Origin: an uncultured Planctomycetales bacterium
GTDB lineage: Bacteria; Omnitrophota; Gorgyraeia; Zapsychrales; Zapsychraceae
Direction: 5' to 3'
Assembly: GCA_964541845.1 (NCBI GenBank)
Contig: CAZIRV010000004.1
Coordinates: 1 to 36,488, forward strand
Length of the DNA stretch: 36,488 nucleotides
Shown here: positions 6,459 through 26,962 of the stretch, in pieces
Layout: the number at the start of each line of letters is the position of its first letter
Position numbering within the stretch: the stretch's first letter is position 1
Notes under the pieces: model-generated
The model's database searches: none
Seen by the model: only the letters and a program-made list of their open reading frames with translations
Told to the model about the DNA's origin: nothing
Translations under genes and position numbers: made by a program

Positions 6459-6572
6459 TATTAGTTTTACTTAGGATCGGCTCAAAAATAACCTCGACAA
6501 CTATATGTCTCAACCCGACAACACTTATGTCATGATTGTCGAGGTTATTTTTGAACGATTCCTTATCTCAAC
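6430..6572. mobile_element. MITE family A fragment interrupted by a family B insertion
   Basis: 6430-6473 plus 6566-6572 correspond to the reverse complement of about 4-55. Confidence 0.75.
6474..6562. mobile_element. MITE family B (89 bp) with TTA target duplication
   Basis: TIRs GGATCGGCTCAAAAATAACCTCGACAA/TTGTCGAGGTTATTTTTGAACGATTCC, with TTA at 6471-6473 and 6563-6565. The empty site is visible in the 1-55 copy. Confidence 0.85.
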
Positions 6573-15837: not shown

Positions 15838-17280
15838 GTGAATTTACAAAAATTATTAAAAAATATTTATTCAAAATCAATTCCAGACGTTTTTAAAGAT
15901 TTGGAAATTAAGGCAATCCATTGTGATTCCAGAAAAGTTGAACAGGGCAGTTTATTTGTGGCTTGTCAGGGGCGGGAGTGTGATGGAGAGGATTTTATAG
16001 AGGAGGCTATTAAAAAAGGCGCGGGGGTAATCTTCAGTAGAAAAAAATATGAAAATCTTTTAGTGTGCTGTTTGTCTGTTGAGGATACGCATCAATTTTT
16101 ACGTAATGTGACAAAACATTTTTATGGAGACTTCTCCAAAAAAATAGGCTCCATTGGGATTACCGGCACCAATGGGAAAACAACGGTGTGTTATTTGCTG
16201 GATTCTATTTTAGCGGAAAATAAAAAACAGTGTGGTATTATTGGAACCATTCATCATCGTATTGGAAAAAATATTTTTGTTGCACAAAATACAACTCCTG
16301 GGTTTTTAGAGAATCAAAAATTTTTAGCGTCCATGATTGAAGAAAATATGGACTATAGTTTGATGGAGGTGTCCTCCCACGCCTTAGATCAAGGACGGGT
16401 TGACGGAATTGATTTTCGGCAAGGAATTTTTACCAACTTGACAGATGAGCATCTGGATTACCATCAGACAAAAGAAGATTATTTTTTTGCTAAATCACAT
16501 TTGTTTACAGGGCTTTCTCACACAGCGACAGCCATTATGAATATTGATGATGAACATGGAAAACGTATGATTAATAAAATTGTGGGGAACGTAATGACCT
16601 ATGGCATAAAAAATCGAGCGGATGTTATGGCTAAAAATATTCAGAGTAGCATTGAAGAAACGCTATTTATTTTAACTTCTTCTTCGGGCGAAATAGAGAT
16701 TCAAACTTCGTTAATCGGATTGTATAACGTTTATAATATTCTTGCCGCGGCAGCTTCATCTTTAGCCGAGGGAGTCGACTTAGAGATTATTCAAAAAGGA
16801 ATAAAGAATCTTGCCTGTGTTCCCGGAAGACTGGAAAGGGTAGATTTTTCGCAGCCCTATACAATATTTATTGACTACGCGCATACGGAAGATGCCTTAG
16901 CTAATGTTTTGCAGTCCATTAAACGCGTAAGCGCATCCAGGATTATTCTTGTCTTTGGTTGTGGCGGAGATCGTGATAAAACCAAAAGAGCCCCTATGGG
17001 GCACGTGGCCGAGCAATTAGCAGATGTCGCTATTATCACAAGTGATAATCCTCGAGGAGAAAAACCACAAGTGATTATTGAAGAAATTATCCAGGGGTTT
17101 GAGAAAGACAATTATTGTATTATAGAAAATCGTGAAAAGGCGATCAAAAAGGCATTAGATATGGCAGAAAAGGACGATATTGTTCTTATTACCGGAAAAG
17201 GGCATGAATCTTATCAAGTGATAGGAAATCAAAAAATTCCTTTTAATGAAAGGGCAATCATAAAGCAATGTTTACGTTAG
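15838..17280 (+). CDS. murE: UDP-MurNAc-Ala-Glu--meso-DAP ligase MurE
   Basis: GITGTNGKTT, MEVSSHAL, DYAHT, FGCGGDRD, DNPR (DAP-type) and GKGHE motifs. Start moved to GTG 15838 because the upstream codons are repeat-derived. Confidence 0.95.
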   Translation: MNLQKLLKNIYSKSIPDVFKDLEIKAIHCDSRKVEQGSLFVACQGRECDGEDFIEEAIKKGAGVIFSRKKYENLLVCCLSVEDTHQFLRNVTKHFYGDFSKKIGSIGITGTNGKTTVCYLLDSILAENKKQCGIIGTIHHRIGKNIFVAQNTTPGFLENQKFLASMIEENMDYSLMEVSSHALDQGRVDGIDFRQGIFTNLTDEHLDYHQTKEDYFFAKSHLFTGLSHTATAIMNIDDEHGKRMINKIVGNVMTYGIKNRADVMAKNIQSSIEETLFILTSSSGEIEIQTSLIGLYNVYNILAAAASSLAEGVDLEIIQKGIKNLACVPGRLERVDFSQPYTIFIDYAHTEDALANVLQSIKRVSASRIILVFGCGGDRDKTKRAPMGHVAEQLADVAIITSDNPRGEKPQVIIEEIIQGFEKDNYCIIENREKAIKKALDMAEKDDIVLITGKGHESYQVIGNQKIPFNERAIIKQCLR

Positions 17281-18674
17281 AAGAAATTAAGAAGGCCGTT
17301 GGCAAGAGACCTTGCCGGGAAGACGCATCCGTAAAGATAACCGGCGTATCAATTAATTCCCGAACACTTAAAAAGGGAAATGTTTTTATTGCCATTAAAG
17401 GCGAAAAGTTTGATGGGCATGATTTCATAAAAGAAGCCCTAAAAAAAGGAGCAGCCGTTATCGTTTCAAACCCAAACAAACACCGGGTGTTTGTTTGGGT
17501 CAAGGATGAAAACCCAAACAAACACCCGGTGTTTGTTTGGGTTAAGGACACGACGAAGGCATTGGGGCAGATTGCGGCTTGGCATCGGAGGAGATTTAAT
17601 GTCCCGGTGATTGCGGTTACGGGAAGCACGGGCAAGACAACCACAAAGGACATGATAGCGGCTATATTGAAGACAAAATATAAAGTGCTTAAGAATTTTA
17701 AAACAGAGAATAATCATTATGGGGTTCCTTTAACGCTTTTGCAATTAAACGCGTCATACCAAATGGTTGTGCTTGAATTTGGAACAAATCAAAAGGGGGA
17801 TATAGAGTGGATCGGTAAGATTGCCTGCCCCACAATAGTTGTATTTACTAATGTTGGTCATTCTCATTTGCAAGGGTTAAAAACACCGTCTGGAGTTTTT
17901 TGTGAAAAATTTCAACTGGTTAAACACATGGCGCTAAATGGCCACATTATTTTTAATAAAGATGATTATTATTTAAAAGCAATTGAGATGAAGAAAATTT
18001 CACAAAGAAAAATAAGTTACGCGGTTGTATCTAAAGCGGATTATCAGATTAATGAAATTGTAGATAGGAATAACAAATCCATTAGTTTTAAGTTTAAAAG
18101 AAAAATATTTTCTTTAAAAACTCCGGTAGAACACAATATTTACAATGCATTGGCGGCCGTTTGTTGTGGAGTAATAAATAAAATTAACTATAATAATATT
18201 GTTAAAAGTCTTTCCATGTTCAAATTTTCCGGAGGACGGCAGGAGATTAAGCGGGTTGGAAAATTTTGGGTTATTGATGATACATATAATGCTAACCCTG
18301 TTTCTTTTATGAGCGCCATTCAAACATTAGAGAATTTTCAAACAAAAGGGCAAAGAATAGCGGTGTGTGCCGATATGGCTGAACTGGGGGAACAATCCAG
18401 GGATCTGCATCAAGAAGTGGGGGAAAAAATAGCAGAGGCCAATATTGATGTGGTTATGACTTTAGGAGAGGATGCCCGGTTTATCGCGCAAGCGGTTAAA
18501 AAATTTAATAAACACATTAAAACATTTCATTGCACACAAATTCATACCATTTATCGAAATTTACAAAAAATCCTTAAACCGAAAGATATTGTTTTGGTAA
18601 AAGGCTCACGTTGTATGCGCATGGAGCGTGTGGTGGAATATATCGTAGGGACAGGTTCCAAACCTGACCAATAA
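17268..18674 (+). CDS. murF: UDP-MurNAc-tripeptide--D-Ala-D-Ala ligase MurF
   Basis: AVTGSTGKTTTK, DDTYNANPVS, MAELG and VKGSR motifs. Confidence 0.95.
   Translation: MFTLEEIKKAVGKRPCREDASVKITGVSINSRTLKKGNVFIAIKGEKFDGHDFIKEALKKGAAVIVSNPNKHRVFVWVKDENPNKHPVFVWVKDTTKALGQIAAWHRRRFNVPVIAVTGSTGKTTTKDMIAAILKTKYKVLKNFKTENNHYGVPLTLLQLNASYQMVVLEFGTNQKGDIEWIGKIACPTIVVFTNVGHSHLQGLKTPSGVFCEKFQLVKHMALNGHIIFNKDDYYLKAIEMKKISQRKISYAVVSKADYQINEIVDRNNKSISFKFKRKIFSLKTPVEHNIYNALAAVCCGVINKINYNNIVKSLSMFKFSGGRQEIKRVGKFWVIDDTYNANPVSFMSAIQTLENFQTKGQRIAVCADMAELGEQSRDLHQEVGEKIAEANIDVVMTLGEDARFIAQAVKKFNKHIKTFHCTQIHTIYRNLQKILKPKDIVLVKGSRCMRMERVVEYIVGTGSKPDQ
17470..17543. repeat. Tandem pair of near-perfect palindromes in frame within murF
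   Basis: ACCCAAACAAACACC-N-GGTGTTTGTTTGGGT occurs twice with a 42-bp period and encodes NPNKH(R/P)VFVWVKD twice. Confidence 0.9.
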
Positions 18675-23626: not shown

Positions 23627-24428
23627 AGCGCGAAGCTTTCGACTTATTGCTGCTTTTTTGATCATTTCTGTATTTTATATTTTTTGCGCGGCATCCTTTG
23701 TTGATGCCGCTAAATCAAAATGGAAAGAGCTTAAATCCCAGCATTTCATTATTTATTACAAAAAGGCCCCGAAAGATTACGCAAAAAATGTTTCGGATAT
23801 GGCCGAAGATTATTATCAGGAAATTTCTAAAAATTTAGGGGTCGTACGATATAAAAGTTGGACATGGGAGGACCGGGCACGCATTTATATTTATGACAAT
23901 TCGGATGATTACGTCACCTCTCTTAGGGTTGCGGGGTGGTCTCATGGAGTCGCCTCTCCCAAAGATAAAGTGATTCGTACCTTTCCGGCGGCGCATGGTT
24001 TTTTTGACTCAACGTTACCCCATGAATTAGCTCATATTATTTTTCGGGAATTTGTTGGGTTTAAAGCCAGGGTTCCTCATTGGTTTGAAGAAGGCGTGGC
24101 CATGTATCAGGAAAAAGGGCGCCGATGGGGGGCGCATCAAAGAGTAAAGAAGCTTATTGAATCAGGAAAATTTATTCCCCTCGGGGAGTTGTCTCAGGTA
24201 CGTTTAAATGGAAGTACGAATCCGGAAAAAGTCGATCTTTTTTATACAGAAGCAGCCAGCATTATTCAATATCTTATTGGAGAGTTAGGAGAAATGCGGT
24301 TTACTCGTTTTTGTCGAAAACTTAAAAAGGGGAATCAATTTGACTGGACCATGCAATCAGTTTATGTGCGTTTTAAAGGAATAGACAAGTTAAATAAGGC
24401 ATGGGTGGATTATTTAAAAAATAAATAA
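23619..24428 (+). CDS. Exported zinc metallopeptidase (clan MA/gluzincin-like)
   Basis: Signal peptide, HELAH and a downstream WFEEG third-ligand motif. Confidence 0.72.
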   Translation: MIKARSFRLIAAFLIISVFYIFCAASFVDAAKSKWKELKSQHFIIYYKKAPKDYAKNVSDMAEDYYQEISKNLGVVRYKSWTWEDRARIYIYDNSDDYVTSLRVAGWSHGVASPKDKVIRTFPAAHGFFDSTLPHELAHIIFREFVGFKARVPHWFEEGVAMYQEKGRRWGAHQRVKKLIESGKFIPLGELSQVRLNGSTNPEKVDLFYTEAASIIQYLIGELGEMRFTRFCRKLKKGNQFDWTMQSVYVRFKGIDKLNKAWVDYLKNK

Positions 24429-24440
24429 ATATAATGGGAA

Positions 24441-24514
24441 GTAGGGGACGTTGATTGATTAATTGATTTGGGGTATAGTAATTTCAAATCAATTAATCAA
24501 TCAACGTCCCCTAC
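24441..24514. repeat. GTAG-terminated perfect 30-bp inverted repeat
   Basis: GTAGGGGACGTTGATTGATTAATTGATTTG, a 14-nt loop and the exact reverse complement. Confidence 0.9.
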
Positions 24515-24526
24515 ACCTCCTCTACA

Positions 24527-24554
24527 CCTCTCACCCTCTCCCGGAGGGAGAGGG
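24527..24554. repeat. CCTCTCCC-type palindrome
   Basis: CCTCTCACCCTCTCCCGGAGGGAGAGGG, related to 15697-15830. Confidence 0.7.
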
Positions 24555-24573
24555 AACGAATTTTAAAAGAATT

Positions 24574-26952
24574 ATGAAAAAATATTATCATTTTATCGGA
24601 ATCGGTGGGATTGGCATGGGGACATTGGCTTCTCTATTATTGAGTAAGGGGTGTAAGGTTAGTGGTTCGGATATTCGTCAGAATGCTATGATGGAACGAT
24701 TACAAAAAGAAGGCGCGCGTATATTTTATGGCCATGATGCCTCGTATATTAATGACGCGGATTGTGTTGTTTTTTCTTCGGCTATTTCAAAAAATAATCC
24801 TGAAATTTCCGCGGCGAAGAAAAAGCAGATTGCTGTCATTCCGCGCGCGCGACTTTTAGTTGATTTGATGAAAGGGTATGACGGGATAACCGTTGCCGGA
24901 GCGCATGGAAAAACAACAACATCATCCATGATAGCGAGGTTGTTAATTAAAGCTGACTTTAAACCGACCGTTGCGGTAGGGGGCAGTACAGAAGGAAGTA
25001 CTAATAACGCCTTGTTGGGAAGCGGCAATTATTTTGTTGCTGAGCTTGATGAAAGTGATGGATCATTTTTGTATTTTAAACCGAAATATTCTGTCATTAC
25101 AAATATTGATTTTGAACATGTGGATTATTATCAGAATTGGGATAATATTCTTAACGCATATCGGAAATTTATGAATCAAACAGAAGAAGAGGGTAAGTTG
25201 TTTGTGTGTGGCGATGATTTCCGTTTATCCTGTTTGATGAAAGAGAGTACAAAAAATTTTGTAACCTATGGGTTTTCAGAAGAGAATGATTGTGTGGCGC
25301 GGAATATTGTTATTAAAGGGTTTGAAACGCGGTTTGAATGTATTTTTCAGGGAAAACATTTGGGAAGTATTCACCTGAATGTCCCCGGAAGACATAATAT
25401 TCTTAACGCGCTTGCCTGCATCAGCGTGGGGATTGATTTATCTATTGATTTTAATATTATTCAGAAAAGTTTGGAAGAATATCGATCTGTTCGTCGAAGA
25501 TTTCAGGTAAAAGGAAAGGTTAATGGCGCTCAAATTATTGATGATTATGCGCATCATCCGACGGAAATAAAAGCCGTGCTTGAAACAGCCCAACAATTAT
25601 TAAAAGGGGACAGCGCCCTATTTTCAGATAGAAAGAATAAAAAAATAGGGCGCTGTCCCCTTTTAATTACGGTTTTTCAGCCGCATCGTTATTCCCGTCT
25701 TCAGGCACTTTTTAAAGAATTTGTTGTTGGTTTTAGTCAGAGTGATTACGTTATTGTAACGGATATTTACGCGGCCAGTGAAGAGCCTATTGAAGGGGTA
25801 ACTTCGCAAAAGCTTGTTAAAGCTATTGAAGAAGTGACGGATAGCCCCGTTGTTTATGTTGAAAGAGAACATGTTGAGGCGTATTTGGTCGATATTGTGG
25901 AGCCTGAAGATCTTGTTTTAACATTGGGGGCAGGGGATATTACAGATGTATTAAAAGGGGACAGCGCCCTTTTTTATGAAGAAAATGGGTTTAAAAAAGG
26001 ACGCTGTATAGGTGTTTTAATGGGGGGGTATTCCTCGGAGAGGGCAATTTCGCTTAAATCAGGGCGAGCTGTTTATGAAGTCTTGAAGGCATCCGGATGT
26101 GATGTTGTGGCTATCGATATTACTGAACGCGATGAAAATAAAATTTTAGCACAAATTTTAAAAGCAGATATAGAACTTGCTTTTATAGCGCTCCATGGTC
26201 AATTAGGTGAGGACGGAACTATTCAAACTATTTTGGAAAAATCCGGCATCCCTTATACGGGATCAGGGGTTGAGGCAAGCCGGCTGGCTATTAATAAAAT
26301 TGACACAAAGATATTATTAAAAAATAATGGGATTGCTGTTCCAAGGTTTGTAAAAGGGGACAGCAACCTTTTTTATAAAAAAAATGGGTTTAAAAAAGTT
26401 TGCTGTCCCCTTTTACCCTTACCTTGTGTGGTGAAACCCATTTATGAAGGGTCGAGTATCGGCATTAGTTTGGTGAGAAAAACAGAAGAATGGGAAGCGG
26501 CGATTAAAACGGCGCGCCAATATGGAACAGAAGTTTTATGTGAAGAATATATTAAAGGGCGGGAATTAACCGTGGGTATTCTTGGGAAAATTCCATTACC
26601 GGTGATTGAAATTTGTCCGGAAAAGGAGTTTTTTGATTTTACGGCGAAATATAATAAAGGCATGACAGATTATATTGTTCCGGCAAAAATTTTGGATAAA
26701 ACAGCTTCTGTTCTCCAGGAGATTGCTTTGAGCGTTCATAACATTGTAGGGTGCAAAGATTTTTCGCGGGTTGATTTTATCCTCAGTGAAGAGGGAATTC
26801 CCTATGTTTTGGAAATTAATACTATTCCGGGATTTACAGAAACCAGCCTGTTACCCATGGCGGCTCAACACACAGGAATGGATTTTCAGCAGCTATGCCG
26901 ACAATTGGTGATGATGAATATAGGGACAGGACTGACCCCTGTCCCTACGTAA
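24574..26952 (+). CDS. murC-ddl: Bifunctional MurC / D-Ala-D-Ala ligase fusion
   Basis: MurC motifs (HFIGIGGIGM, GAHGKTTT, DESDGSF, DDYAHHPTE, FQPHRYSR, GAGDI) run into Ddl motifs (MGGYSSER, LHGQLGEDG, GSSIG, EINTIPG) with no stop. Start moved to ATG 24574. Confidence 0.93.
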   Translation: MKKYYHFIGIGGIGMGTLASLLLSKGCKVSGSDIRQNAMMERLQKEGARIFYGHDASYINDADCVVFSSAISKNNPEISAAKKKQIAVIPRARLLVDLMKGYDGITVAGAHGKTTTSSMIARLLIKADFKPTVAVGGSTEGSTNNALLGSGNYFVAELDESDGSFLYFKPKYSVITNIDFEHVDYYQNWDNILNAYRKFMNQTEEEGKLFVCGDDFRLSCLMKESTKNFVTYGFSEENDCVARNIVIKGFETRFECIFQGKHLGSIHLNVPGRHNILNALACISVGIDLSIDFNIIQKSLEEYRSVRRRFQVKGKVNGAQIIDDYAHHPTEIKAVLETAQQLLKGDSALFSDRKNKKIGRCPLLITVFQPHRYSRLQALFKEFVVGFSQSDYVIVTDIYAASEEPIEGVTSQKLVKAIEEVTDSPVVYVEREHVEAYLVDIVEPEDLVLTLGAGDITDVLKGDSALFYEENGFKKGRCIGVLMGGYSSERAISLKSGRAVYEVLKASGCDVVAIDITERDENKILAQILKADIELAFIALHGQLGEDGTIQTILEKSGIPYTGSGVEASRLAINKIDTKILLKNNGIAVPRFVKGDSNLFYKKNGFKKVCCPLLPLPCVVKPIYEGSSIGISLVRKTEEWEAAIKTARQYGTEVLCEEYIKGRELTVGILGKIPLPVIEICPEKEFFDFTAKYNKGMTDYIVPAKILDKTASVLQEIALSVHNIVGCKDFSRVDFILSEEGIPYVLEINTIPGFTETSLLPMAAQHTGMDFQQLCRQLVMMNIGTGLTPVPT
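25599..25667. repeat. In-frame palindrome family H, copy 1 (MurC domain)
   Basis: 26-bp perfect inverted arms ATTAAAAGGGGACAGCGCCCTATTTT, encoding LKGDSALFSDRKNKKIGRCPLL. Confidence 0.92.
25951..26007. repeat. In-frame palindrome family H, copy 2 (MurC-Ddl junction, right arm truncated)
   Basis: TTAAAAGGGGACAGCGCCCTTTTTTA...TAAAAAAGGACGCTGT, encoding LKGDSALFYEENGFKKGRC. Confidence 0.88.
26350..26416. repeat. In-frame palindrome family H, copy 3 (Ddl domain)
   Basis: GTAAAAGGGGACAGCAA...TTGCTGTCCCCTTTTAC, encoding VKGDSNLFYKKNGFKKVCCPLL. Confidence 0.9.
26920..26948. repeat. GTAG-type REP encoding the Ddl C-terminus
   Basis: TAGGGACAGG-ACTGACC-CCTGTCCCTAC, encoding IGTGLTPVPT. Confidence 0.8.
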
Positions 26953-26962
26953 ATTTAATCTT

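What the first reader, a model, noticed from the sequence alone, without database searches (positions are those of the whole stretch)
25599..26416. A palindromic DNA family (AAAAGGGGACAG...CTGTCCCCTTTT) inserted three times in frame into murC-ddl, always read as 'KGDS...CPLL'
Seen: three homologous inverted-repeat elements of about 57-69 bp (25599-25667, 25951-26007, 26350-26416) lie inside one intact essential ORF. All three are in the same reading frame and give the peptides LKGDSALF...GRCPLL, LKGDSALF...GRC and VKGDSNLF...VCCPLL. Copy 1 keeps 26-bp perfect arms, so the symmetry is at DNA level and is either recent or maintained. Known: Rickettsia palindromic elements (RPEs) insert in frame into surface loops of proteins. 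Inference: this is an RPE-like mobile coding palindrome family in an unrelated lineage that adds peptide loops to peptidoglycan enzymes. I do not recognise this family.
Basis: partly seen in the sequence, partly recalled or inferred. Interest (0 to 1): 0.9.

Follow-up and report, generated by a model that had tools for sequence, protein, structure and literature searches.

The report
Transposase-linked palindromes inside murC-ddl
Three copies of a small palindromic repeat sit in frame inside the only murC-ddl cell-wall gene of an uncultured Omnitrophota bacterium; near-identical sequences flank tyrosine-transposase genes in related genomes, so this looks like a new example of a known kind of selfish DNA that proteins tolerate in loops and linkers.

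Summary
Three related palindromes lie in frame at 25599-25667, 25951-26007 and 26350-26416, inside an intact MurC-Ddl gene. Independent contigs from two studies reproduce them, so they are not a misassembly.

The family can be recognised. Its unit (A/T head, GGGGACAGCGCCC, TATTTT) fits the GGGGWSAS motif described for inverted repeats that flank RAYT-like Y1 tyrosine transposase genes (PMC3733652). Near-identical units flank such genes in 8 of 45 Y1 loci examined in related genomes. The exact 12-nt stem pair occurs in 21 of 401 sampled Omnitrophota genomes, against 0 for a reversed control.

In relatives the same palindrome lies in frame in at least five other genes and is absent from congeners.

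The shared KGDS frame is mostly explained by stop codons in the other frames. All three copies fall in low-confidence loop or linker segments of the predicted structure.

Two points remain unexplained. The elements replace native codons rather than simply adding to them. The linker and Ddl sites also carry different palindromes in the closest relatives.

Verdict: a new member of a known kind (intragenic REP/RPE-like elements). Interest is moderate.

The parts
24571..26952 (+). murC-ddl fusion gene (792 codons from the ATG at 24571, stop included). It is the only murC and the only ddl found in the assembled genome.
   Evidence: Translation. Pfam finds Mur_ligase, Mur_ligase_M and Mur_ligase_C, then Dala_Dala_lig_N and Dala_Dala_lig_C. 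The database form P0002 starts at this ATG. tblastn of each half finds no second copy in G000, which is 93.8% complete. The TTG at 24463 lies inside an upstream palindrome and is probably not the start.
25599..25667 (+). Copy 1. A complete palindrome with perfect 26-nt arms and a 17-nt loop, read as LKGDSALFSDRKNKKIGRCPLL (P0002 residues 343-364). It lies between a helix and the first strand of the MurC C-terminal domain.
   Evidence: Absent in 19 of 19 family relatives and in the 8 homologs aligned, P0003-P0009 and P0017; net gain 17 residues. Present in the roughly 93% identical strain of run X3. RNA fold -43.9 kcal/mol, z -10.5. Mean pLDDT of 71 and 57 for residues 341-360, against 94 on either side.
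25951..26007 (+). Copy 2. Its right arm is truncated. It is read as LKGDSALFYEENGFKKGRC (P0002 residues 460-478) and forms the whole linker between the MurC and Ddl halves.
   Evidence: Residues 462-472 have pLDDT below 50. RNA fold -17.8 kcal/mol, z -2.9. A contig from an independent study covers it whole with 0 differences.
26350..26416 (+). Copy 3. A complete palindrome with 26-nt arms at 96% complementarity, read as VKGDSNLFYKKNGFKKVCCPLL (P0002 residues 593-614). It stands in place of the variable segment before the conserved VVKP strand of Ddl.
   Evidence: Net gain is only 4-5 residues against family orthologs. Both arms carry the same GC-to-AA change relative to copies 1 and 2. RNA fold -37.7 kcal/mol, z -6.5. 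Mean pLDDT of 72 and 62 for residues 591-610.

Best explanation
**What it is.** The three elements are non-autonomous dimers of a terminal inverted repeat. Each is two inverted units of about 23-26 nt around a short A/T-rich loop. In related Omnitrophota genomes, this kind of repeat forms the two ends of small cassettes that carry a RAYT-like HUH/Y1 tyrosine transposase gene. The architecture therefore matches a 'TIRtron' without its gene, comparable to a REP doublet (REPIN).

**How it probably works (inferred, not shown).** Enzymes of this superfamily act on single-stranded hairpin DNA, so I infer that such a Y1 enzyme copied the units into new sites.

**Why these copies survive.** Copies inside genes persist only where two conditions hold. 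The element must be free of stop codons in the gene's frame, and the site must tolerate about 20 extra or replaced residues. In murC-ddl those sites are:
- a loop at the start of the MurC C-terminal domain (copy 1);
- the inter-enzyme linker (copy 2);
- the variable segment of Ddl before the VVKP strand (copy 3).

**Order of events (inferred).** The closest relatives also carry palindrome-like peptides at the linker and Ddl sites, so those two sites look old. Copy 1 is the youngest, and probably arose by a local jump or copying from copy 2.

**Effect on the host.** The encoded peptides are most likely passengers. The strong mRNA hairpins may have side effects on transcription or translation, but none is shown.
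For: **Repeat family**
- Unit-level identity among the copies, and 5 arms of the 15-mer core in this gene, plus C112 and C169.
- The pair GGGACAGC...GCTGTCCC occurs in 10 of 45 genomes of the taxonomic family (7 of 26 genera). The exact 12-nt stem pair occurs in 21 of 401 sampled genomes of the phylum (19 of 282 genera). The reversed control gave 0 everywhere.

**Link to the transposase**
- Y1_Tnp genes are found in 40 of 45 family genomes.
- In 8 of the 45 non-G000 Y1 loci examined, the Y1 match is enclosed by inverted repeats of this type. Four came from 29 unselected loci. Four came from 16 loci chosen in genomes that hold the pattern.
- Examples: ATAGGGGTCAGCGCCCTA on both sides in G005, and TATAGGGGACAGAGCCCTA in G009. 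Each differs by one base from the G000 core.
- The two enclosed proteins that were printed in full (G005, G012) show the HVH motif and a conserved Tyr in RYVE.NPV.
- The two such enclosed proteins scanned (G005, G012), like the two G000 Y1 proteins scanned with them, best match NCBIfam 'REP-associated tyrosine transposase' at 61-74 bits, below its cut-off of 80.
- GGGGACAG fits the GGGGWSAS consensus reported for such repeats (PMC3733652, section 16, read).

**Mobility**
- The element is absent from congeners at 62-78% protein identity in four other host genes.
- Copy 1 is absent from all 19 family relatives and from the 8 homologs aligned, P0003-P0009 and P0017.

**Tolerance**
- All three copies lie in low-pLDDT segments flanked by high-confidence structure.
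- The gene is intact and is the only copy found.

**Frame**
- The GDS frame is stop-free in 17 of 27 element readings. The other two frames are open in 5 of 28 and 7 of 28.
Against: - No Y1 gene flanked by this family was found in G000. Its three Y1 genes are either flanked by another palindrome family (contig C28) or have no detected repeats (contig C29). The cognate enzyme is therefore missing, unassembled or lost.
- Copy number is very low for a mobile family: 1-14 per genome.
- The G000 copies begin TAAAAG, not the GTAG tag of classical REPs.
- Elements add fewer codons than they encode. In one clean case about 45 nt stand in place of about 42 nt. Simple insertion does not predict this.
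- Transposition itself was not observed, and no target-site rule was found.
- The Y1 proteins score below NCBIfam's equivalog cut-off.
Confidence: 0.75

Rival explanations
1. The hairpins are selected RNA or DNA structures of the cell-division operon. They could be attenuators, RNase sites or translational pause sites between protein domains. On this reading their coding content is secondary and the resemblance to transposase ends is ancestral only.
For: - The folds are very stable: -43.9 and -37.7 kcal/mol, with z scores of -10.5 and -6.5.
- The linker and Ddl sites also hold palindrome-compatible peptides with different sequences in the closest relatives P0003 and P0005. Their chain length is 7, and only 5 of 360 shuffles reach 7.
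- Other Omnitrophota carry unrelated palindromes at the same two sites.
- The arms co-vary.
Against: - The same element sits in unrelated genes and in spacers, and is absent from congeners.
- Copy 2 has lost half its stem.
- Copy 1 is missing in relatives at 75% identity.
- Arm co-variation can arise from template switching within a quasi-palindrome without any selection. This mechanism is recalled, not tested.
- A simple terminator scan did not flag the elements.
Confidence: 0.12
2. A classical miniature inverted-repeat element moved by a DDE transposase of the IS630/Tc1 type, with a TA target duplication.
For: Complete copies are bounded by TA on both sides. Examples are TA-AAAGGGG...CCCCTTT-TA at copies 1 and 3, and TA-AAGGGG...CCCCTT-TA on C112.
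Against: - TA is itself palindromic, so it cannot be told apart from the end of the inverted repeat.
- No DDE_3 match was found in G000 (the genome is 93.8% complete).
- In relatives the ends enclose Y1 genes, not DDE genes.
Confidence: 0.05
3. An assembly or binning artefact in which palindromes were introduced by the assembler.
For: The genome is a fragmented metagenome bin of 184 contigs. Contigs of other runs break at copies 1 and 3.
Against: - A separately built contig of the probable source run spans the whole gene with 0 differences.
- A second study reproduces copy 2 and both halves of copy 3.
- A strain about 93% identical carries copies 1 and 3 (all).
- The frame stays open through all three elements.
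Confidence: 0.02

Closest known systems
TIRtrons: inverted repeats with the GGGGWSAS motif around RAYT-like tyrosine transposase (TIRYT) genes, and the repeat families derived from them (Di Nocera et al. 2013, PMC3733652; section 16 read, other passages by search)
   Same: - The core GGGGACAG fits GGGGWSAS.
- Near-identical units enclose Y1 genes in 8 related genomes.
- Units occur as single copies and as head-to-head dimers, at moderate or low copy number.
   Different: - The lineage is Omnitrophota. Two literature searches gave nothing relevant for this phylum: one search listed 3 of the 4 papers it found, none relevant by title or abstract, and one search found 0.
- No cognate gene was found in this genome.
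- Three dimers lie in frame in one essential gene.
- The 12-nt stem is identical across many families of the phylum.
REP / REPIN elements with RAYT transposases, including intragenic REP dimers
   Same: - Short hairpin units in inverted pairs, associated with HUH/Y1 enzymes.
- In-frame dimers encoding 20-30 residues, sometimes twice in one gene, are reported (PMC3733652, passages seen). The highest count of intragenic GTAG repeats reported there is in Opitutus terrae.
   Different: - No GTAG tag in the G000 copies.
- The stems, at 23-26 nt, are longer than the 5-13 bp listed for GTAG REPs (Table 1 of that paper, seen).
- Copy number is a handful rather than tens to thousands.
Rickettsia palindromic elements (RPE)
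   Same: A palindromic repeat family inserted in frame in unrelated housekeeping genes. The added peptides are judged compatible with protein fold (as summarised in PMC10969869 and PMC3733652; passages seen).
   Different: - RPEs are about 150 bp as first reported, and number 44 in R. conorii (PMC10969869). Here the elements are 57-69 bp.
- There is no evidence of sequence relationship; this was not tested.
- Here a transposase link can be shown in relatives.

Membership tests
TIRYT-associated inverted repeats (TIRtron family) | The repeat carries the GGGGWSAS motif. | tested here: met
   GGGGACAG is present in all five full arms of the three copies. The consensus is taken from PMC3733652, section 16.
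TIRYT-associated inverted repeats (TIRtron family) | The same repeat flanks a Y1 (HUH) transposase gene in inverted orientation. | tested here: inconclusive
   Met in relatives: 8 of 45 Y1 loci have GGG(G)WCAG-type repeats enclosing the Y1 match, and two have cores one base away from G000's. Not met in G000 itself, where 0 of 3 Y1 genes are flanked by it. G000 is 93.8% complete.
TIRYT-associated inverted repeats (TIRtron family) | The enclosed protein has the HUH and catalytic Tyr motifs, and RAYT-like rather than IS200-like signatures. | tested here: inconclusive
   Pfam Y1_Tnp scores above its cut-off. HVH and RYVE.NPV are visible in 2 proteins. The best NCBIfam hit is REP_Tyr_transpos at 61-74 bits, below its cut-off of 80. 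IS200 is much weaker, at 19 bits in one protein.
REP / REPIN | GTAG (or CGTC) tetranucleotide tag at one end of the unit. | tested here: not met
   The G000 units begin TAAAAG or TAAAG. Several relatives' units begin ATAG. A different palindrome family in this genome, at 24441-24514, does begin GTAG.
REP / REPIN | Inverted pair of units able to fold as one long hairpin. | tested here: met
REP / REPIN | Tens to thousands of copies per genome. | tested here: not met
   G000 has 3 copies in the gene, 1 full copy and 1 solo arm. Other genomes have 1-14.
Rickettsia palindromic elements | In-frame insertion of a repeated palindrome in functional genes. | tested here: met
Rickettsia palindromic elements | Sequence membership in one of the described RPE families, with a size of about 100-150 bp. 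| tested here: not met
   The size criterion is not met: 57-69 bp, against about 150 bp (PMC10969869). Sequence comparison with RPEs was not done, because no RPE sequence was at hand.
DDE-type MITE (IS630/Tc1-like) | Target-site duplication, and a DDE transposase with the same ends. | tested here: inconclusive
   The TA at both ends cannot be separated from the palindrome. There is no DDE_3 match in G000. No empty site is available in a near-identical strain.
Intrinsic terminator | GC-rich stem, short loop and U-tract. | tested here: inconclusive
   The stem is GC-rich and is followed by UUUU. The loops, at 15-17 nt, fall outside the scan's 3-8 nt rule, and the scan lists none of the three. 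Function cannot be tested here.

The most novel reading that the evidence does not exclude
These transposase-end dimers enter genes by patch substitution, not plain insertion. A stretch of native DNA of similar length is exchanged for the palindrome. The patch then persists for a long time at the same site, and its two arms, and neighbouring copies, are kept alike by template switching or local conversion. If so, this would be a distinct way in which a Y1/RAYT-type system rewrites coding sequence. It could also weld adjacent genes, here murC and ddl, into fusions.
Probability: 0.2. Interest if true: 0.7.

Novelty: new member of a known kind. Interest (0 to 1): 0.45.

Why it matters
The finding extends in-frame palindromic selfish DNA to Omnitrophota, an uncultured phylum. 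Unlike the Rickettsia case, it ties the element to a candidate enzyme family.

It shows that even the single copy of an essential two-enzyme cell-wall gene can carry three such elements, one of them serving as the linker of the fusion.

For genome annotation, it warns that such hairpins can break contigs, extend apparent reading frames and inflate protein lengths in metagenome bins.

The replacement-like footprints and the site persistence are testable hints about how RAYT-like enzymes remodel DNA. That mechanism is still poorly understood.

Tried and rejected
- **DNA of the closest relatives (P0003-P0005).** It could not be obtained. The search for related loci in metagenome contigs and genome contigs returned only more distant loci, at 58% identity or less. 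Palindromy in those relatives therefore rests on peptides only.
- **First peptide-palindrome script.** It was redone with chained 4-residue windows and shuffled controls. Chains of 5-6 are common by chance, so only those of 7 or more were used.
- **Y1 genes of G000.** No repeat of this family lies near them.
- **DDE_3 family in G000.** No match.
- **Simple terminator scan.** It lists none of the three elements.
- **Joints.** The 'skips about 110' joints around 25560-25675 come from other organisms' murC aligned by conserved flanks (short sides of 20-26 letters). I did not use them as evidence for an empty site.
- **Script.** It stopped with an error after printing 2 of 8 proteins. For the other six loci, enclosure of the Y1 match by the repeats was worked out from the coordinates given.
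- **Supplementary files of PMC3733652.** These list intragenic REPs and TIRtrons and could not be seen. They may already contain related families.
Full report

Yes. The region 25400-26600 shows three related palindromes at the stated coordinates.
- Copy 1 (25599-25667) has perfect 26-nt arms around a 17-nt loop.
- Copy 3 (26350-26416) has 26-nt arms at 96% complementarity.
- Copy 2 (25951-26007) keeps its left arm but has lost the outer half of its right arm.

The 12-mer AAAAGGGGACAG, allowing 1 mismatch, occurs 5 times in the window against 0.33 expected. None of 100 shuffles reached 5.

All three copies lie in one open frame, 24463-26952, and give exactly the quoted peptides. Pfam reads the protein as MurC followed by Ddl. 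The database form starts at the ATG at 24571. The upstream TTG lies inside another palindrome and is probably not the start.

**2. Is it an assembly artefact?**

No.
- A contig built separately from the probable source run spans 24300-26954 with 0 differences.
- A run from a different study holds copy 2 whole, and both halves of copy 3, with 0 differences. Its contigs break at copies 1 and 3, as de Bruijn assemblies tend to do at hairpins.
- A third run holds a strain about 93% identical. Its contig runs through copy 1 with no indel, and a 75-nt contig equals copy 3 with 6 differences.

**3. The organism and the gene**

The genome has 184 contigs, 2.16 Mb and 37.8% G+C. Named homologs of the protein are from Candidatus Omnitrophota/Omnitrophica.

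tblastn of each half of the protein finds no second murC or ddl in the bin, which is 93.8% complete. The gene with the three elements is therefore the only copy seen.

Among 19 relatives of the same family or order, murC and ddl are separate adjacent genes in 18 and fused in 1. Further fusions exist in the family and are common among the full-length database hits. That search admitted only proteins of 455-1451 residues.

**4. Position relative to orthologs and structure**

- **Copy 1** is a clean lineage-specific addition. It is absent in 19 of 19 relatives and in the 8 homologs aligned, P0003-P0009 and P0017. The net gain is 17 residues.
- **Copy 2** makes up the whole linker between the last conserved MurC motif (GAGDIT) and the first Ddl strand.
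- **Copy 3** occupies the variable segment before the conserved VVKP strand. The net gain is only 4-5 residues.

An AlphaFold2 model built from 68 sequences has a mean pLDDT of 89. The three peptides fall in dips:
- residues 341-360: 71 and 57;
- residues 462-472: below 50;
- residues 591-610: 72 and 62.

Structure beside copies 1 and 2 scores above 90; the 10-residue blocks flanking copy 3 score 97 (581-590) and 83 (611-620). However, two of the three elements are not simple additions.

**5. Genome census**

G000 holds only:
- the three copies in this gene;
- one full copy on contig C112, in the 5' part of a 172-codon frame with no Pfam match;
- one solo arm on C169.

The genome is nevertheless full of other palindrome families. 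There are 208 hairpins with arms of 13 nt or more, including a 73-bp family with about 45 copies.

**6. The family elsewhere**

- The pair GGGACAGC...GCTGTCCC, with a gap of 15-60 nt, occurs in 10 of 45 genomes of the taxonomic family (7 of 26 genera), at 1-5 copies each.
- The exact 12-nt stems GGGACAGCGCCC...GGGCGCTGTCCC occur in 21 of 401 sampled genomes of the phylum (19 of 282 genera), at 1-14 copies each.
- The reversed control pattern gave 0 in every genome.
- The loops differ in length and sequence.

**7. The link to a transposase (the main new result)**

Y1 (IS200-like, HUH) transposase domains occur in 40 of 45 family genomes.

I inspected 45 such loci outside G000. Twenty-nine were returned by the search. 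Sixteen more were fetched from genomes that hold the pattern, which makes them a biased choice. In 8 of the 45, the Y1 match is enclosed by inverted repeats of this type:

| Genome | Repeat |
|---|---|
| G005 | ATAGGGGTCAGCGCCCTA |
| G009 | TATAGGGGACAGAGCCCTA |
| G012 | AAAATAGGGACAGACACTATTT |
| G014 | GGGACAGACGCTATTTT |
| G007 | GAAGGGGACAGGACACTC |
| G043 | GGGGACAGTCCCC-type |
| G002 | GGGGACAGTCCCC-type |
| G048 | GGGACACAAT... |

The G005 and G009 cores differ from the G000 core by one base.

The repeats point outward, exactly as the two arms of the murC-ddl palindromes do. Each palindrome therefore looks like such a cassette without its gene.

- The two proteins that were printed show the HVH motif and a Tyr in RYVE.NPV.
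- The best NCBIfam hit for the four proteins scanned is 'REP-associated tyrosine transposase', at 61-74 bits against a cut-off of 80.

Di Nocera et al. (PMC3733652; section 16 read) describe RAYT-like genes flanked by inverted repeats, which they call TIRtrons and TIRYTs. Some of those repeats share the consensus GGGGWSAS, and GGGGACAG fits it.

G000's own three Y1 genes are not flanked by this family. One, on C28, is flanked by another palindrome family of this genome.

**8. In-gene copies in other genomes**

Of the 18 copies outside G000, 13 were returned with surrounding DNA.
- Five lie inside long frames. Four of these carry Pfam domains: an antiporter-like subunit, an AMP-binding enzyme, a class IV aminotransferase and a GNAT-containing protein. 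The fifth is a TPR membrane protein.
- Two lie at uncertain 5' ends.
- Six lie in spacers.

Congeners at 62-78% protein identity lack the element in all four genes that could be compared. That is the presence/absence pattern expected of mobile DNA.

**9. The shared reading frame**

Seven of the 8 in-gene elements are read with the left arm as (K/R)GDSALF, or GDSNLF in copy 3; one is read as GTAPF.

In 6 of the 8, the frame in use is the only one of three without a stop. Over 14 elements read on both strands, the GDS frame is open in 17 of 27 readings. The other two are open in 5 of 28 and 7 of 28.

The common frame is therefore largely a survival filter. The A/T-rich heads and loops put TAA or TAG in the other frames. 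It is not evidence that the peptide has a function.

**10. Two things that simple insertion does not explain**

**(a) Elements add fewer codons than they encode.**

| Element | Net change in residues | Residues encoded |
|---|---|---|
| Copy 1 | +17 | 22 |
| Copy 3 | +4 to +5 | 22 |
| G032 gene | +9 | 15 |
| G014 gene | +9 | about 20 |
| G054 gene | shorter than 3 congeners (by 1-5 residues), longer than 2 (by 2-3) | 20 |
| G051 aminotransferase | +1 | 15 |

In the G051 aminotransferase, a DNA alignment with three congeners shows about 45 nt of palindrome standing where about 42 nt of native sequence lie, between well-conserved flanks.

**(b) The closest relatives carry different palindrome-like peptides at the same linker and Ddl sites.**
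- P0003 is 75% identical; P0004 and P0005 are 68% identical.
- Their peptides are KVGTHPTF...KKVGCVPTF (P0003) and KSRDRSHFL/KSGTCPYFL (P0005).
- Each is compatible with a perfect DNA palindrome over a chain of 7 windows. G000 copy 1 scores 9, and only 5 of 360 shuffled proteins reach 7.
- Within P0003 the two sites resemble each other. Within G000, copies 2 and 3 are 88% identical, loops included.
- Both arms of copy 3 share a GC-to-AA change.

My reading is that the linker and Ddl elements are old. Arms and neighbouring copies are kept alike by template switching or local conversion, a recalled mechanism that was not tested. Copy 1 is a later local copy.

Re-insertion at hot spots is the alternative. 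Other Omnitrophota carry unrelated palindromes at the same two sites, which fits either view.

**11. Possible effects on the host**

As RNA the elements fold very stably:
- copy 1: -43.9 kcal/mol, z -10.5;
- copy 2: -17.8 kcal/mol, z -2.9;
- copy 3: -37.7 kcal/mol, z -6.5.

The stems of copies 1 and 3 are each followed by UUUU. A simple terminator scan does not list them, because their loops exceed its limit. Any regulatory effect is conjecture.

**12. Comparison with what is known**

- In-frame palindromic repeats are known from Rickettsia. RPEs are about 150 bp, and nearly half are inserted into reading frames (PMC10969869, passages seen).
- They are also known for REPs in several phyla. More than half of the intragenic inserts are dimers or groups encoding 20-30 residues, sometimes twice in one gene (PMC3733652, passages seen).
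- Two searches gave nothing relevant on such elements in Omnitrophota. One search found 4 papers holding the terms and listed 3, none relevant by title or abstract. One search found 0 papers.
- The supplements of PMC3733652 could not be seen.

I therefore file this as a new member of a known kind. It works like an intragenic REP/RPE element, and it most likely belongs to the GGGGWSAS-tagged, TIRYT-associated repeats. Membership is not complete because no cognate gene was found in this genome.

**13. Verdict**

Interest is moderate (0.45), for these reasons:
- three copies in the sole copy of an essential fusion gene;
- one copy serving as the fusion linker;
- a demonstrable transposase link;
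- the replacement-like footprints, which deserve a test.

Noticed in passing
window 17469-17543: A tandem doublet of another palindrome family (unit AACCCAAACAAACACCGGGTGTTTGTTTGGGTT) lies in frame in murF (17268-18674), read as NPNKHRVFVWVKDENPNKHPVFVWV. The net gain is about 10 residues against 5 relatives. The same family flanks the Y1 transposase gene on G000 contig C28.
   Followed up: partly
window 24441-24514: A palindrome with perfect 30-nt arms, beginning GTAGGGGACGTTGATTG, lies in the spacer before murC. It folds at -54.7 kcal/mol (z -11.9). It belongs to a family with about 6 copies in the genome, and it makes the murC-ddl frame appear to start 36 codons too early.
   Followed up: partly
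window 6482-6554 (and about 45 other places in G000): A 73-bp element with 19-nt terminal inverted repeats (TCAAAAATAACCTCGACAA) is the most abundant small repeat of this genome. None of its copies was found inside a long open frame.
   Followed up: partly
L029 4792-4845; also L028, L117, L186: Other Omnitrophota carry a different in-frame palindrome (TTGTCCCTGCAGTCCC...GGGACTGCAGGGACAA) at the same variable segment of Ddl where copy 3 sits.
   Followed up: partly
L103 4419-4469; also L023, L131: A 15-nt-arm palindrome (AACTTCAAATCTCCC...GGGAGATTTGAAGTT) lies at about residue 473 of fused MurC-Ddl genes in other Omnitrophota. That is the inter-enzyme linker, the same place as copy 2.
   Followed up: no
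L026 2846-2908 and 8052-8113 (same in L027): A near-identical family member (AATAGGGGTCAGCGCCCTATT dimer) lies just upstream of murC, and again about 5 kb downstream, in a metagenome contig. There it is in spacers rather than in genes.
   Followed up: no
G000 contig C29 1307-2629: Two tandem, near-identical RAYT-like Y1 genes (214 and 226 codons) lie here with no detectable flanking inverted repeats.
   Followed up: partly
L097 2172-2258: An inverted duplication with 36-nt arms lies inside the coding sequence of murC in one metagenome contig. It may be an assembly chimera.
   Followed up: no
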